Shown here piece by piece: positions 16,690 to 22,146 of a DNA stretch of 32,000 nt (positions are counted from its first letter, which is position 1; every line of letters begins with the position of its first letter). The stretch spans positions 180,001-212,000 of the forward strand of contig CAURWT010000002.1 of the NCBI GenBank assembly GCA_963528875.1. The letters are read 5' to 3'. The position numbers and the translations under genes are program-made. Source of the DNA: an uncultured Candidatus Saccharimonas sp. GTDB lineage: Bacteria > Patescibacteriota > Saccharimonadia > Saccharimonadales > Saccharimonadaceae. The notes under the pieces are model-generated. The model did no database searches. It was not told where the DNA came from and was given only the letters and a program-made list of their open reading frames with translations.

Positions 16690-17318
16690 GTTATAGTTCC
16701 CTAACAATTTAGAATATGATATAATAATGCCTTCGAAAATGTTTATCGAGAAAGAGTTATAGTTCCCTAACAATTTAGAATATGATATAATAATGTATAA
16801 GAAACATGGTGTTATGTGTTAGTTATAGTTCCCTAACAATTTAGAATATGATATAATTTTAATACCAGTCTTAATTCCCATATCTTGTTATAGTTCCCTA
16901 ACAATTTAGAATATGATATAATTATATAAATTACCTAAATGCGGACTTGTTGGTTATAGTTCCCTAACAATTTAGAATATGATATAATGAATTAGCCGTG
17001 AGATTATTTTGTTCAATTGTTATAGTTCCCTAACAATTTAGAATATGATATAATTGAATAGCGGCGAAAATAAACGTTATTGAGGTTATAGTTCCCTAAC
17101 AATTTAGAATATGATATAATCACGTTCATAACCATTGAATAGAGTAAATGGTTATAGTTCCCTAACAATTTAGAATATGATATAATGCAAATATTATGGA
17201 AAACTCAAGCAAAAAAGTTATAGTTCCCTAACAATTTAGAATATGATATAATAAAATTTTCTTGAATTTTGATCGCATACAGGTTATAGTTCCCTAACAA
17301 TTTAGAATATGATATAAT
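16690..17318 (+). CRISPR. CRISPR array: 10 identical 36-nt repeats and 9 spacers (eight of 30 nt, one of 29 nt)
   Basis: The repeat GTTATAGTTCCCTAACAATTTAGAATATGATATAAT starts at 16690, 16756, 16822, 16887, 16953, 17019, 17085, 17151, 17217 and 17283. The plus strand is assigned as the crRNA sense strand because the tracrRNA anti-repeat is on the minus strand. Confidence 0.97.
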
Positions 17319-17326
17319 ACTTGCTA

Positions 17327-17355
17327 AAATCCCCATCTGTTGCGATGGGGTTTTT
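17327..17355. terminator. Bidirectional intrinsic terminator shared by cas2 and the array
   Basis: aaaat-ccccatc-tgttgc-gatgggg-ttttt: a 7-bp GC-rich stem flanked by an A run and a T run. It lies between repeat 10 (17318) and the cas2 stop (17359). Confidence 0.7.
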
Positions 17356-17358
17356 AGT

Positions 17359-17682
17359 TTAAAAAAATGAAAGTTGATCATTCGAAACACGCCTTTCTTG
17401 CGCAGTTTTTTTACCAGCAATCACATACATATTCGTAAATTGATGCTCTGTTAAATAAATTAGCCGAATCGAACCAACATCTGGCGCATTTCTCTTAACA
17501 CGATTCATATGTTTTTCGGCGGCATCCCTATTCGGGCAAAGCCTCGTGTAAACACTATACTGCAACATATTAAAACCATCTTTTAGCAAGAAGTTTCGAA
17601 AACGTGTTGCTATTCTTCTTTCTTTTTTACTACCCGTAGGTAGATCAAAAAATACCGCTACTCTCATAAATTTATATGCCAT
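17359..17682 (-). CDS. cas2: CRISPR-associated endoribonuclease Cas2
   Basis: 107 aa. MRVAVFFDLPTGSKKERRIATRFRNFLLKDGFNMLQYSVYTR shows the typical Cas2 beta1-Asp and ferredoxin-fold pattern. It follows cas1. Confidence 0.9.
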   Translation of the reverse strand: MAYKFMRVAVFFDLPTGSKKERRIATRFRNFLLKDGFNMLQYSVYTRLCPNRDAAEKHMNRVKRNAPDVGSIRLIYLTEHQFTNMYVIAGKKTAQERRVSNDQLSFF

Positions 17683-17717
17683 CTTTCCTCTTTTTGTTTT
17701 TATTTTTGTTTTATTTT

Positions 17718-18602
17718 TTATATTTTTGGCAACTCTAGACTACTTGAATCTTTCTTTAAAATACAATCAACAAAACTTTCAACCGTAATCTCAATTGCAT
17801 TTTTAATTGCGAATTTTTTACCCTTAATCTTAACCCGAAATTCTAAAACCTCAAGCAAAATCCGGCGTTCTTCTTTCGAAAGAGCCGAATCTTCTTTTTC
17901 GAACCCACTCAAACCAAATTTTTTAAGCACGAACAGGTCGATTAGAGGGCGATACGCTTCAATCAAGTCATCTGCTAAATTAAAGCTATTTAGCTCATTA
18001 TGATGAAAAATACCTTGCGAAACTACCAGCCCACGAGCCGCCAAATGCCGTGCCAACCCTGTGCGAACAAGCGCATAGCTGTAATTTAATGCCGAATTAT
18101 ACCACATTGGCCGACGACGGGTTGCGTCATCAAGAAGCTGTGAAAAGTAGTCGCGTGCGGCTAAAGACTCACGATTAGCGGAATCTCCAGATTTAACTTC
18201 ACTTGCACATTTTCGAAGATATTCATCATTTAAGCCAAAATATTTTAAAACATCAGCCTGATTAGAAATTTTTCGAATAATATTATTCTGCCAAATCTGT
18301 TTTTTGAGTGGAATCTTCATCTCAATTTGCTGGCGAGATACTTTAGCCTGCCGCGAATGTTGAGAATATGGTAAAACTATGGCCGTAGGAAGATGCTTCT
18401 GATCACAAATCACAACGCTCACTGCTCGAGAAGAGAGCTCATTTAATAGATTTGTGGTTAAGTTTAAACCATAATTATCAATTATTAACGAGTCGATATC
18501 TTCAATCGGAATCGAAACGTCTTCTTCTTGCGAAATTAAGAGCCGGTTATTTTTAACGCTTAGTCGAGCGGGATTTTCGATAGAAATAATGCGCCACGCC
18601 AT
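17718..18602 (-). CDS. cas1: CRISPR-associated integrase Cas1 (type II)
   Basis: MAWRIISIENPARLSVKNNRLLISQ is a type II Cas1 N-terminus. I place the start at ATG 18602, which forms a TAATG overlap with the cas9 stop; the ORF track instead uses a GTG three codons upstream (18611). Confidence 0.92.
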   Translation of the reverse strand: MAWRIISIENPARLSVKNNRLLISQEEDVSIPIEDIDSLIIDNYGLNLTTNLLNELSSRAVSVVICDQKHLPTAIVLPYSQHSRQAKVSRQQIEMKIPLKKQIWQNNIIRKISNQADVLKYFGLNDEYLRKCASEVKSGDSANRESLAARDYFSQLLDDATRRRPMWYNSALNYSYALVRTGLARHLAARGLVVSQGIFHHNELNSFNLADDLIEAYRPLIDLFVLKKFGLSGFEKEDSALSKEERRILLEVLEFRVKIKGKKFAIKNAIEITVESFVDCILKKDSSSLELPKI

Positions 18603-21600: not shown

Positions 21601-21907
21601 TTTCTCGAATTTTATATGGATCAAGTTTATTTCCTGGCTTTAAAAGCTCTTCAATTTGTTCTTTAGCTAATAGATTATTATCTCTGAAGAATCTTTTAAT
21701 AAAATTTAACCGCTGACGGCGACGCTTCAATCTTCTTCTTGTTGAGCGAGCTGTTCGCCGAGCTTCAGACAGACTTTTACCATCTTTCGGGTTTTCTGGT
21801 TTTTCGAAAATCCGAACGCCAACTTTTTCGATTCTTTTGTTATCTTCATCGATTATAGCCCAACCAATTGAGGTCGTACCTATATCTAAACCTATTGAGT
21901 ACTTCAT
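18602..21907 (-). CDS. cas9: Cas9, compact type II-C-like (1101 aa)
   Basis: RuvC-I [19 protein letters not shown]; Arg-rich bridge helix [18 protein letters not shown]; RuvC-II [44 protein letters not shown]; RuvC-III [13 protein letters not shown]. No csn2 or cas4 is present in the locus. Confidence 0.96.
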   Translation of the reverse strand: [1101 protein letters not shown]

Positions 21908-21913
21908 AACTCT

Positions 21914-21942
21914 ATTATAAGATAATAAGTTTTTTTATTCAA
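21914..21942 (-). promoter_or_regulatory. Predicted cas9 promoter placing the TSS at or near the AUG
   Basis: Minus strand: TTGAAT, 17 nt, TATAAT, then 6 nt (agagtt), then the ATG. There is no Shine-Dalgarno sequence, although neighbouring genes have strong ones. Confidence 0.45.
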
Positions 21943-22111
21943 TATAAAGATAATCCACCCTTTAAGGATGGATTAGAGCTTTGCCTTAGGTTCGATAATA
22001 GAACTCTCAACCGTAGCTACACAGTGCGAAACTGCTGCCCTTAGTTGCTAAGATTATTATAGAAACCTAACGATTTAGAATATGATACAATCCTTACTTA
22101 AGGGACTGTCC
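21943..22111 (-). ncRNA. tracrRNA
   Basis: The anti-repeat (RC of 22056-22091) matches the repeat at 30/36 Watson-Crick positions plus 2 G:U pairs, with a 3-nt internal loop at repeat positions 8-10. It is followed by the hairpin CUUAG-CAA-CUAAG, further stems, and the terminal hairpin AAUCCAUCC-UUAAA-GGGUGGAUU plus a U-rich tail. The G:U in that hairpin is valid only on the minus strand. The ends given are predictions. Confidence 0.8.
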
Positions 22112-22117
22112 TTATAC

Positions 22118-22146
22118 AGTATACATCTAAATAAAATTATTGTCAA
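22118..22146 (-). promoter_or_regulatory. Predicted tracrRNA promoter
   Basis: Minus strand: TTGACA (22146-22141), 17 nt, TATACT (22123-22118), about 27 nt upstream of the anti-repeat. Confidence 0.6.

What the first reader, a model, noticed from the sequence alone, without database searches (positions are those of the whole stretch)
16690..22146. Complete compact type II-C CRISPR-Cas9 locus with a convergently transcribed array
Seen: tracrRNA, cas9 (1101 aa with intact RuvC I-III, bridge helix and HNH), cas1 (TAATG-coupled to cas9) and cas2 lie on the minus strand. They are followed by 10 identical 36-nt repeats. No csn2 or cas4 is present, which indicates subtype II-C. The tracr anti-repeat has the same plus-strand sense as the array repeats. 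The tracr locus has a minus-strand promoter and a terminator valid only on the minus strand. Together these imply crRNAs are made from the plus strand, running toward cas2. TTCGAA is as dense in cas9 as in the housekeeping genes (see the TTCGAA finding), which suggests a long-resident locus rather than a recent import. A small Cas9 from a streamlined, possibly uncultivated lineage is of both biological and tool interest.
Basis: partly seen in the sequence, partly recalled or inferred. Interest (0 to 1): 0.7.

Follow-up and report, generated by a model that had tools for sequence, protein, structure and literature searches.

The report
Type II-C CRISPR-Cas9 of oral Saccharibacteria
This is an intact but ordinary type II-C CRISPR-Cas9 immune locus of an uncultivated oral Saccharibacteria (TM7) bacterium; the unusual parts are what its spacers target (almost only one strand of a filamentous phage) and a 663-base phage fragment sitting where the oldest spacer should be.

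Summary
On the minus strand lie a tracrRNA gene, cas9 (1101 aa, catalytic residues intact), cas1 (TAATG-coupled) and cas2. Ten identical 36-nt repeats follow. No csn2 or cas4 is present.

The reading of plus-strand crRNAs running toward cas2 is supported by four lines:
- the anti-repeat orientation;
- a TGATATAAT extended -10 box at the 3' end of every repeat;
- a plus-strand terminator after the last repeat;
- a PAM found only 3' of protospacers.

This convergent layout is the published norm for II-C, not a peculiarity. II-C systems in oral Saccharibacteria are already described, so this is a new member of a known kind.

Additional results:
- Four of the 9 spacers match phages. The predicted PAM is N4CC, and sister strains with a different Cas9 C-terminus show different PAMs.
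- Of 40 spacers from this repeat family that hit an inovirus-like prophage family, 39 are complementary to its coding strand. A tailed-phage control gives 5 of 12.
- Outside the given coordinates, an 11th degenerate repeat (15991-16026) and repeat 1 bracket 663 bp copied from that inovirus. Sister strains have a normal 30-nt spacer there, and one strain has a 2.65-kb tailed-phage fragment.
- One strain lost the cas genes by recombination between a repeat and the anti-repeat.

The parts
15991..16026 (+). Degenerate terminal ('extra', oldest) CRISPR repeat. The 3' 27 nt match the repeat at 24 of 27 positions and include TGACATAAT. The 5' 9 nt are diverged.
   Evidence: The same element directly precedes a normal 30-nt spacer in sister strains L050 and L061. 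L044 has a comparable degenerate terminal repeat.
16027..16689 (-). 663-bp segment copied from an inovirus-like phage, occupying the position of the first spacer. It carries ORFs 16278-16664 (128 aa, 2 TM) and 16064-16294 (76 aa, 1 TM), their promoter (16684-16656) and a hairpin terminator (~16040-16066).
   Evidence: 86-92% nucleotide identity to viral loci L017, L022, L023 and L030. Homology stops exactly at 16689/16690. Promoter.
16690..17318 (+). CRISPR array of 10 identical 36-nt repeats and 9 spacers. Each repeat ends in the extended -10 box TGATATAAT.
   Evidence: Spacers 3, 6, 7 and 9 match phage contigs.
17319..17360 (+). Leader-side junction, with an intrinsic terminator (stem 17331-17350 plus T-run) between the last repeat and cas2. 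It is conserved in sister loci.
17359..17682 (-). cas2
   Evidence: TIGR01573, 88 bits; PADLOC Cas2_II, 1e-42.
17718..18602 (-). cas1 (type II / NMENI). Its start ATG overlaps the cas9 stop (TAATG).
   Evidence: TIGR03639, 263 bits; PADLOC Cas1_II, 1e-102; sequence.
18602..21907 (-). cas9, 1101 aa, with RuvC I-III, bridge helix and HNH intact.
   Evidence: TIGR01865, 746 bits; Pfam HNH_4, RuvC_III, Cas9_RuvC, Cas9_a; best PDB matches are GeoCas9 and NmeCas9; motif positions.
21914..21942 (-). Promoter-like site TTGAAT-17-TATAAT ending 7 nt before the cas9 ATG. This could mean a leaderless cas9 mRNA; inferred only.
   Evidence: sequence.
21945..22111 (-). tracrRNA (primary transcript about 165 nt, ends inferred). 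Anti-repeat at 22056-22091; terminator hairpin at 21975-21951.
   Evidence: The region is conserved down to loci with 49% Cas9 identity, with compensatory changes in the terminator stem.
22118..22146 (-). tracrRNA promoter TTGACA-17-TATACT
   Evidence: 11 of 12 matches. A -10-like element lies at the equivalent position in L044, L046 and L008 (read by eye, not scanned).

Best explanation
This is a functional type II-C CRISPR-Cas9 adaptive immune locus of an oral Candidatus Saccharibacteria (TM7) lineage.

**Shown by sequence**
- cas9, cas1 and cas2 are intact.
- All ten repeats are identical.
- A tracrRNA gene with its own promoter and terminator lies upstream of cas9 on the cas strand.
- The spacers match contemporary phages of this host group.

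**Inferred mechanism**
1. Each repeat carries an extended -10 promoter (TGATATAAT) at its 3' end. Short crRNAs therefore start about 7 nt into each spacer on the plus strand, giving a guide of roughly 23-24 nt, and run into the next repeat.
2. That repeat pairs with the tracrRNA anti-repeat, and the duplex loads Cas9.
3. Transcription from the last repeat stops at the terminator at 17331-17350, before it reaches cas2.
4. Cas9 cuts DNA whose protospacer is followed by 5'-NNNNCC-3'.
5. New spacers enter at the cas2-proximal repeat.

**Targets.** The system is aimed at two phage families of oral Saccharibacteria: a ~5.9-kb inovirus-like prophage and a tailed phage.
For: **Gene identity**
- HMM matches.
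- Catalytic residues.

**tracrRNA**
- Duplex energy; promoter and terminator.
- Conservation and covariation across loci down to 49% Cas9 identity.

**Repeat promoter**
- TGNTATAAT occurs 17 times against 1.9 expected.
- Ten copies are in the repeats; others lie 9-51 nt upstream of gene starts, including ftsZ.
- A TATAAT at the repeat 3' end is kept in L044, L046 and L008.

**Orientation and PAM**
- For Cas9s sharing this window's C-terminal sequence, 13 of 14 protospacers have CC at +5/+6, and the 5' flank shows no signal.
- Window spacer 3 matches with 0 mismatches and flank TACACC. Spacer 9 matches with 1 mismatch and flank CACCCC. Spacer 7 matches with 3 mismatches and flank AATACC.

**Activity and turnover**
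- The 149 unique spacers were collected from 21 of 23 sister loci scanned, several of them pieces of one contig (the window gives nine more, counted in the 149). Most are strain-specific, and many have 0-1 mismatch to phage contigs.

**Polarity**
- L002 and L056 share only the two cas-distal spacers.
- L049 has one extra spacer at the cas2-proximal end relative to L048.
- This agrees with PMC12080349.

**Host**
- Cas9 is 92-94% identical, and the flanks syntenic, in MAGs named Candidatus Saccharibacteria or Saccharimonas from oral samples.
Against: - There are no RNA data, so crRNA and tracrRNA ends, strand use and RNase III processing are all inferred.
- The PAM rests on only 3-4 of the window's own spacers plus spacers from sister arrays. 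One weak match (spacer 6, 4 mismatches) has flank CTTGCT.
- Rfam has no matching tracrRNA or CRISPR-repeat family for this locus.
- Sister loci show that this system can decay: L063 has degenerate repeats and a stop codon in cas9. It can also be deleted, as in L060.
Confidence: 0.85

Rival explanations
1. The array is transcribed from the minus strand as one pre-crRNA, co-directional with the cas operon as in type II-A. On this reading the plus-strand promoter boxes are coincidental.
For: No RNA data exclude it. Read-through from cas2 into the array is conceivable, because the hairpin at 17331-17350 is flanked by A-runs and T-runs and could act in both directions.
Against: - Minus-strand crRNA could not pair with a minus-strand tracrRNA, since the anti-repeat has the same sense as the repeats.
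- The tracr promoter and terminator are minus-strand only and conserved in position.
- The PAM signal lies only on the side expected for plus-sense spacers.
- The hairpin and T-run between cas2 and the array would stop cas read-through.
Confidence: 0.04
2. The locus is an inactive relic that looks intact but no longer acquires spacers or interferes.
For: - Close relatives show decay (L063, L057) and deletion (L060).
- The window's spacers 6 and 7 have 3-4 mismatches to the sampled phages.
- A phage-derived cassette sits inside the array.
Against: - All ORFs are intact and all 10 repeats identical.
- Spacer 3 matches a phage with 0 mismatches and spacer 9 with 1, both with the correct PAM.
- Spacer content differs almost completely between strains whose Cas9s are 92-94% identical.
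- No spacer targets the window itself.
Confidence: 0.08
3. The locus is a recent horizontal import rather than a long-term resident.
For: - Cas9 relatives at 62-63% identity sit at unrelated chromosomal sites, one of them next to TraG/T4SS-like genes.
- The locus lies beside a variable candidate defence gene (PDC-S18) that is absent from L004 and L048.
- Shaiber et al. argue that oral TM7 acquired CRISPR recently.
Against: - GC is 0.359 against 0.357 for the window, and TTCGAA density equals that of the flanks.
- The locus sits at the same site, between ileS and nrdR-ftsZ, in at least 10 related assemblies at 83-94% nucleotide identity.
Confidence: 0.25

Closest known systems
Neisseria meningitidis and Campylobacter jejuni type II-C systems (Nme1/Nme2Cas9, CjCas9)
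   Same: - Gene order tracrRNA-cas9-cas1-cas2-array, with no csn2 or cas4.
- 36-nt repeats beginning GTT.TAG and ending in an extended -10 box.
- Array transcribed toward cas2 from promoters inside each repeat. Acquisition at the cas-proximal repeat and a degenerate first ('extra') repeat are described for II-C systems in general (PMC12080349).
- The predicted N4CC PAM equals that of Nme2Cas9 (my recollection of Edraki et al. 2019; not read here).
- PAM differences track swaps in the Cas9 C-terminus among close orthologues, in line with the title of PMC9433092 (listed, not read) and with PMC8482600 on PID shuffling.
   Different: - The host is an ultra-small epibiotic CPR bacterium.
- Cas9 is only distantly related: full-length phmmer E 2e-151 to Nme.
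- The targets include an inovirus-like phage, hit with an extreme strand bias.
- The oldest spacer position holds a 663-bp phage fragment.
GeoCas9 (Geobacillus; PDB 9ar4, 8jtj, 8uza)
   Same: It is the best match among solved structures, aligned over residues 1-1099 (E 7e-183 to 2e-178). All RuvC and HNH motifs are conserved.
   Different: The host is a Firmicute thermophile. The two proteins were not compared for PAM recognition.
Published oral Saccharibacteria II-C systems (Shaiber et al. 2020, PMC7739484; Liu et al. 2023, PMC10746230)
   Same: - Same phylum and habitat, with cas9+cas1+cas2 and no csn2, classed as II-C1.
- 30-nt spacers that match Saccharibacteria phages and prophages.
- MAGs from these and similar data sets carry Cas9 at 92-94% identity to this one.
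   Different: In the passages I read, those papers do not report repeat promoters, a PAM, the strand bias, or kb-scale inserts inside arrays. I did not read their supplements.

Membership tests
Type II-C CRISPR-Cas | Signature effector Cas9 with split RuvC and inserted HNH nuclease domains | tested here: met
   TIGR01865, 746 bits (cut-off 100). Pfam HNH_4, RuvC_III, Cas9_RuvC and Cas9_a. D8, E505, H588, N611, H726 and D729 are present.
Type II-C CRISPR-Cas | Adaptation module of cas1 + cas2 only, with neither csn2 (II-A) nor cas4 (II-B) | tested here: met
   cas1 TIGR03639 and cas2 TIGR01573. The flanking ORFs are an unannotated 86-aa ORF, NrdR and FtsZ on one side, and phage-derived small TM proteins, PDC-S18 and IleRS on the other. 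None matches Csn2 or Cas4. ORFs further away in the window were not all scanned.
Type II-C CRISPR-Cas | tracrRNA with an anti-repeat complementary to the CRISPR repeat | tested here: met
   Anti-repeat at 22056-22091 forms 32 of 36 pairs, -34.6 kcal/mol. It has its own promoter and terminator and is conserved across lineages. Expression was not tested.
Type II-C CRISPR-Cas | Cas9 sequence groups with II-C orthologues rather than II-A or II-B | tested here: met
   Full-length alignments are obtained only with II-C Cas9s: Geo (614 bits), Nme (510 bits) and, more weakly, BlCas9. II-A Sau and St1 score about 220 bits and align in part; SpCas9 scores about 92 bits. No formal tree was built.
Type II-C CRISPR-Cas | Typical but not defining: a promoter inside each repeat, the array transcribed toward the cas genes, and new spacers added at the cas-proximal repeat | tested here: met
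   TGATATAAT is present in all 10 repeats. PAM side is given. Shared spacers lie at the cas-distal end. All of this is at sequence level; transcription start sites are not testable with these tools.
Type II-C CRISPR-Cas | RNA-guided, PAM-dependent DNA cleavage | not testable with these tools
   Indirect only: catalytic residues are intact, and 13 of 14 protospacers carry N4CC.
Inoviridae-like filamentous phage (the spacer targets and the source of 16027-16689) | Zot/pI-type morphogenesis ATPase, rolling-circle Rep (gpII-like), very small TM coat proteins, and a genome of about 6 kb with all genes on one strand | tested here: met
   Pfam Zot (PF05707) and REP_ORF2-G2P (PF23343); PHROGs Zot-like and RCR initiator; 45-60-aa TM ORFs; a 5.87-kb prophage between 17-nt direct repeats. 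Virion form and the packaged strand are not testable.

The most novel reading that the evidence does not exclude
Two linked readings go beyond a routine II-C locus.

**(1) Strand-selective targeting of a filamentous phage.**
- In this Saccharibacteria lineage, 39 of 40 spacers against the inovirus-like phage are complementary to its coding strand. That strand is presumably the packaged (+) strand.
- Spacers from the same arrays against a tailed phage show no bias (5 of 12).
- The bias runs opposite to the mild template-strand bias reported for type II in general (PMC8482600).
- It would be natural evidence that II-C Cas9 works on single-stranded phage DNA or its transcripts in vivo, or that spacers are captured from rolling-circle intermediates.

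**(2) Kilobase-scale phage fragments at the oldest spacer position.**
- Contiguous phage fragments have twice been installed exactly between two repeats, in place of the oldest spacer: 663 bp here and 2652 bp in L048.
- This would fit over-long prespacer integration by Cas1-Cas2, or some other recombination directed at repeat borders.
- The fragment in this window still carries two intact phage genes with their own promoter.
Probability: 0.3. Interest if true: 0.75.

Novelty: new member of a known kind. Interest (0 to 1): 0.42.

Why it matters
**As a CRISPR locus it adds little.**
- II-C systems of oral Saccharibacteria are already published.
- The convergent, repeat-promoted array is standard for II-C.
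- A roughly 1.1-kb-aa Cas9 with a likely N4CC PAM duplicates what Nme2Cas9 already offers as a tool.

**Its value lies in the ecology it exposes.**
- It links an uncultivated epibiont to two phage families.
- It shows PAM diversification by exchange of the Cas9 C-terminus within one species group.
- It shows how the direct orientation of repeat and anti-repeat lets the whole cas operon be deleted.

**If the strand bias holds up,** it would be rare natural support for the single-stranded-DNA activity of II-C Cas9s, which I recall from in-vitro work that I did not read here.

**The phage fragments sitting exactly between repeats** raise the question of whether the adaptation machinery can insert long DNA.

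Tried and rejected
- **GenBank phages.** BLAST of 38 spacers against INPHARED found no match. The targets were found only in IMG/VR.
- **Rfam.** No tracrRNA or CRISPR-repeat family matched; the only hits were two tRNAs and a sub-threshold T-box.
- **Phage-borne repeats as the source of the insert.** No CRISPR repeat, allowing up to 9 mismatches, occurs in any of the 46 phage loci. The idea was rejected for lack of support.
- **Single crossover between a spacer and the phage.**
  - This predicts a 30-bp duplication at both ends of the insert.
  - Positions 16027-16056 and 16660-16689 are unrelated.
  - The first spacers of the 'empty-site' strains L050 and L061 do not match the phage. The idea was rejected.
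- **Integration through the phage's own att site.** The att core GTCGCACAATATATCTT does not resemble the repeat, so there is no support.
- **PAM next to the two large inserts.** The flanks are TGAAAT and GCGATT, neither of which fits N4CC or N4GT.
- **An ancestral prophage lying next to the array, as suggested by L044.** The cassette has the opposite orientation to what this predicts.
- **Small ORFs beyond the arrays of L044 and L046.** They are unrelated to the cassette ORFs.
- **Spacers of more distant arrays (L044, L046, L008).** None gave an informative match to either phage family.
- **CC/GG composition as the cause of the strand bias.** The split of CC sites is 54:46, which cannot explain 39:1.
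- **Literature on kb-long spacers.** The search found nothing relevant.

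
Full report
**1. What is there**

The minus strand carries three cas genes.
- cas9 lies at 18602-21907 (1101 aa; TIGR01865, 746 bits).
- cas1 lies at 17718-18602 (TIGR03639, 'type II/NMENI', 263 bits).
- cas2 lies at 17359-17682 (TIGR01573, 88 bits).
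- The cas9 stop and the cas1 start overlap as TAATG.

Cas9 aligns over its whole length with the II-C enzymes GeoCas9 (E 7e-183) and NmeCas9 (E 2e-151). It aligns only in part with II-A Sau and St1 Cas9. It keeps D8, the arginine-rich bridge helix, E505, H588, N611 and H726/D729.

The array at 16690-17318 has ten identical copies of GTTATAGTTCCCTAACAATTTAGAATATGATATAAT and nine spacers. No neighbouring ORF resembles Csn2 or Cas4.

**2. tracrRNA**

- A copy of the repeat in the same plus-strand sense lies at 22056-22091.
- Transcribed from the minus strand, it pairs with the crRNA repeat at 32 of 36 positions, with a 3-nt internal mismatch. The duplex energy is -34.6 kcal/mol, against -6.9 +/- 2.4 for shuffled partners.
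- A minus-strand promoter (TTGACA-17-TATACT, 11 of 12 matches) lies at 22146-22118. A terminator at 21975-21951 needs G-U pairs and was called only on the minus strand.
- The whole element is recognisable upstream of cas9 in loci whose Cas9 is only 62%, 63% and 49% identical (L044, L046, L008). This covers the 5' hairpin, the anti-repeat and the terminator, plus the internal stem in L044 and L046 only.
- In those loci a -10-like element sits at the equivalent distance (read by eye). The terminator stem shows compensatory changes.

**3. Direction of crRNA synthesis**

Four independent lines put crRNAs on the plus strand, running toward cas2.
- (a) The orientation of the anti-repeat.
- (b) Every repeat ends in TGATATAAT, a canonical extended -10 box.
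  - The pattern TGNTATAAT occurs 17 times in the window against 1.9 expected.
  - The seven copies outside the array include sites 9-51 nt upstream of gene starts such as ftsZ, so it looks like a native promoter type.
  - A TATAAT at the repeat's 3' end is kept in the distant loci.
- (c) A hairpin plus T-run at 17331-17350 follows the last repeat and is conserved in sister strains.
- (d) When spacers are read in plus sense, a conserved motif appears only 3' of the protospacers, as Cas9 requires.

This layout is the published description of II-C systems: a promoter in each repeat, the array reading toward the cas genes, new spacers entering at the last repeat, and a mutation-prone first 'extra' repeat (Feussner et al. 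2025, PMC12080349).

Polarity is borne out here as well.
- Arrays L002 and L056 share only their two cas-distal spacers.
- L049 has one extra spacer at the cas2-proximal end relative to L048.

**4. Host, distribution and residence**

- Cas9 proteins 92-94% identical, within syntenic DNA, occur in oral MAGs named Candidatus Saccharibacteria or Saccharimonas.
- The locus lies between ileS and nrdR-ftsZ-ftsA.
- Its GC content (0.359 against 0.357) and TTCGAA density (3.0 per kb in cas9 and window-wide, about 9 times expectation) equal those of the flanks.
- Against long residence, Cas9 relatives at 62-63% identity sit at unrelated chromosomal sites.
- One sister strain (L060) has lost tracr, cas9, cas1, cas2 and most of the array. 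The loss came from recombination between a CRISPR repeat and the anti-repeat, which are direct repeats.
- L063 is decaying: it has degenerate repeats and a stop codon in cas9.
- Shaiber et al. 2020 (PMC7739484) and Liu et al. 2023 (PMC10746230) already describe Cas9 / II-C systems and spacer-targeted prophages in oral Saccharibacteria.

The locus is therefore a new member of a known kind. 'Long-resident' holds only at the level of the species group.

**5. Targets and PAM**

- No spacer matched GenBank phages.
- A degenerate pattern built from two overlapping sister-strain spacers found IMG/VR contigs. A search with their Zot-like protein brought in 32 related loci.
- These are inovirus-like prophages of 5.87 kb.
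  - They carry a Zot ATPase, an RCR Rep and tiny TM coat ORFs.
  - They are bounded by a 17-nt direct repeat and integrated between FtsQ-like/MurG and DUF3048 genes.
- A metagenome scan for the repeat added 16 arrays, giving 149 unique spacers. Forty of these hit the inovirus loci.
- Twelve spacers hit a tailed-phage family, which was found through the insert in L048.
- Of the window's own spacers:
  - spacer 3 matches the tailed phage perfectly (flank TACACC);
  - spacer 9 matches the inovirus with 1 mismatch (CACCCC);
  - spacer 7 matches it with 3 mismatches (AATACC);
  - spacer 6 matches it with 4 mismatches (CTTGCT).
- For Cas9s sharing this window's C-terminal sequence (..[20 protein letters not shown]..), 13 of 14 protospacers carry CC at +5/+6, so the predicted PAM is N4CC.
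- Strains with a KYNIANGSI-type C-terminus show roughly N4GT. Strains with KYGIADGTLNLMNHDQTSKD show roughly N3RA.
- PAM specificity thus varies through exchange of the last ~50 residues, as known for Neisseria orthologues.

**6. Strand bias (outside the original finding)**

- Of the 40 inovirus protospacers, 39 lie on the strand antisense to the phage genes. The crRNAs are therefore complementary to the coding strand (binomial p about 1e-9).
- CC-site composition is 54:46 and does not explain this.
- The hits are spread along the phage and avoid the cassette region.
- Spacers from the same arrays against the tailed phages are unbiased, at 5 coding to 7 template (Fisher p = 4e-5).
- Vink et al. 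2021 report a mild template-strand preference for type II systems (PMC8482600), which is the opposite direction.

In canonical inoviruses the packaged (+) strand is the coding strand; this is established knowledge, not tested here. II-C Cas9s are known in vitro to cut ssDNA; this is my recollection, not read here. The bias may therefore reflect selection for hitting single-stranded phage DNA or transcripts, or acquisition from rolling-circle intermediates. This is inference only.

**7. The phage fragment inside the array (outside the given coordinates)**

- A degenerate repeat lies at 15991-16026. Its 3' part matches the repeat at 24 of 27 positions and its 5' 9 nt have diverged, which is the pattern typical of II-C extra repeats.
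- In strains L050 and L061 this element is followed by an ordinary 30-nt spacer and then the array.
- In the window, and in L002, L004/L062, L053 and L060 (with L052 and L056 holding its array-proximal end), the interval instead holds 663 bp (a different length in L002 and L004). This DNA is 86-92% identical to the accessory cassette of the inovirus, meaning the stretch between its rep-proximal hairpin and a point 9 nt from its att core.
- Homology stops exactly at 16689/16690, in the middle of a phage palindrome. In L002 and L004 it starts right after the degenerate repeat.
- The cassette keeps a promoter, two small TM ORFs and a terminator. The 128-aa ORF is intact here and in L004 but frameshifted in L002.
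- Independently, L048 has 2652 bp between a near-perfect terminal repeat and its array. This insert is collinear with the tailed-phage family from its first to its last base.
- No phage locus carries a CRISPR repeat. There is no flanking duplication and no convincing PAM.

Contiguous phage segments fitted exactly between repeats suggest chemistry acting at repeat borders, such as over-long prespacer integration or some other repeat-directed recombination. I could not discriminate between these. The L048 case rests on a single contig.

**8. Verdict**

This is a correct call of a canonical, probably active II-C system, so the finding as written is ordinary. The strand bias and the 'giant spacers' are the parts worth a specialist's attention.

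Noticed in passing
window 15991-16689: A degenerate 11th repeat and repeat 1 bracket 663 bp copied from the same inovirus-like phage family that the array's spacers target. The segment holds two small TM ORFs, a promoter and a terminator. Sister strains L050 and L061 have a normal 30-nt spacer at this position.
   Followed up: partly
L048 (window orientation 4064-6751): A second, independent kb-scale insert. It is 2652 bp, collinear with a tailed-phage family (Mu F-like head protein, Doc-like protein), and lies exactly between a near-perfect terminal repeat and the array. It is seen in one contig only.
   Followed up: partly
viral loci L012-L043 versus 149 spacers from the window and sister arrays: 39 of 40 protospacers in the inovirus-like prophages lie on the strand antisense to the phage genes, so the crRNAs are complementary to the coding strand. 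For tailed phages the count is 5 of 12.
   Followed up: partly
L060 9023-9128, compared with window 16690-22091: A sister strain lacks tracr, cas9, cas1, cas2 and most of the array. The junction is a repeat fused to the sequence that follows the anti-repeat, so the deletion arose by recombination between repeat and anti-repeat.
   Followed up: yes
Cas9 residues ~1050-1101 (window 18602-18760): Three C-terminal sequence variants occur among Cas9s that are otherwise 92-94% identical. They go with three different protospacer flanks: N4CC, about N4GT, and about N3RA.
   Followed up: partly
window 14632-15591 (-): This 319-aa protein (NucS-like N-terminus plus DUF5655) matches the PADLOC candidate defence family PDC-S18 at E 4e-83. 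The gene is absent from L004, L048, L059 and L063.
   Followed up: partly
window 15602-15768 (-): A sub-threshold T-box leader match (33 bits against a gathering score of 93) lies upstream of ileS (11726-14623). In this strain the PDC-S18 gene sits between the leader and ileS; in strains without that gene the leader directly abuts ileS.
   Followed up: partly
window-wide (96 sites): TTCGAA is the most frequent palindromic hexamer: 96 copies against about 10.6 expected from base composition. It is evenly dense in the cas genes but sparse in 14632-16664 (2 copies in 2 kb).
   Followed up: partly
window 21914-21942 (-) and 4538-4546 (-): Promoter-like -10 boxes end only 7-9 nt before the ATG of cas9 and of the gene at 3743-4528. 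This suggests leaderless mRNAs in this organism.
   Followed up: no
window 22083-22091 and the anti-repeats of L044 and L046: The anti-repeat reads TACAAT where the repeat has TATAAT. The change keeps pairing as G-U but alters the -10 box on the opposite strand. The same substitution occurs in three lineages.
   Followed up: no
L017 2621-2637 and 8489-8505: The inovirus-like prophage is bounded by the 17-nt direct repeat GTCGCACAATATATCTT. It is inserted between an FtsQ-like/MurG gene pair and a DUF3048 gene in several contigs, and no integrase gene was seen.
   Followed up: partly
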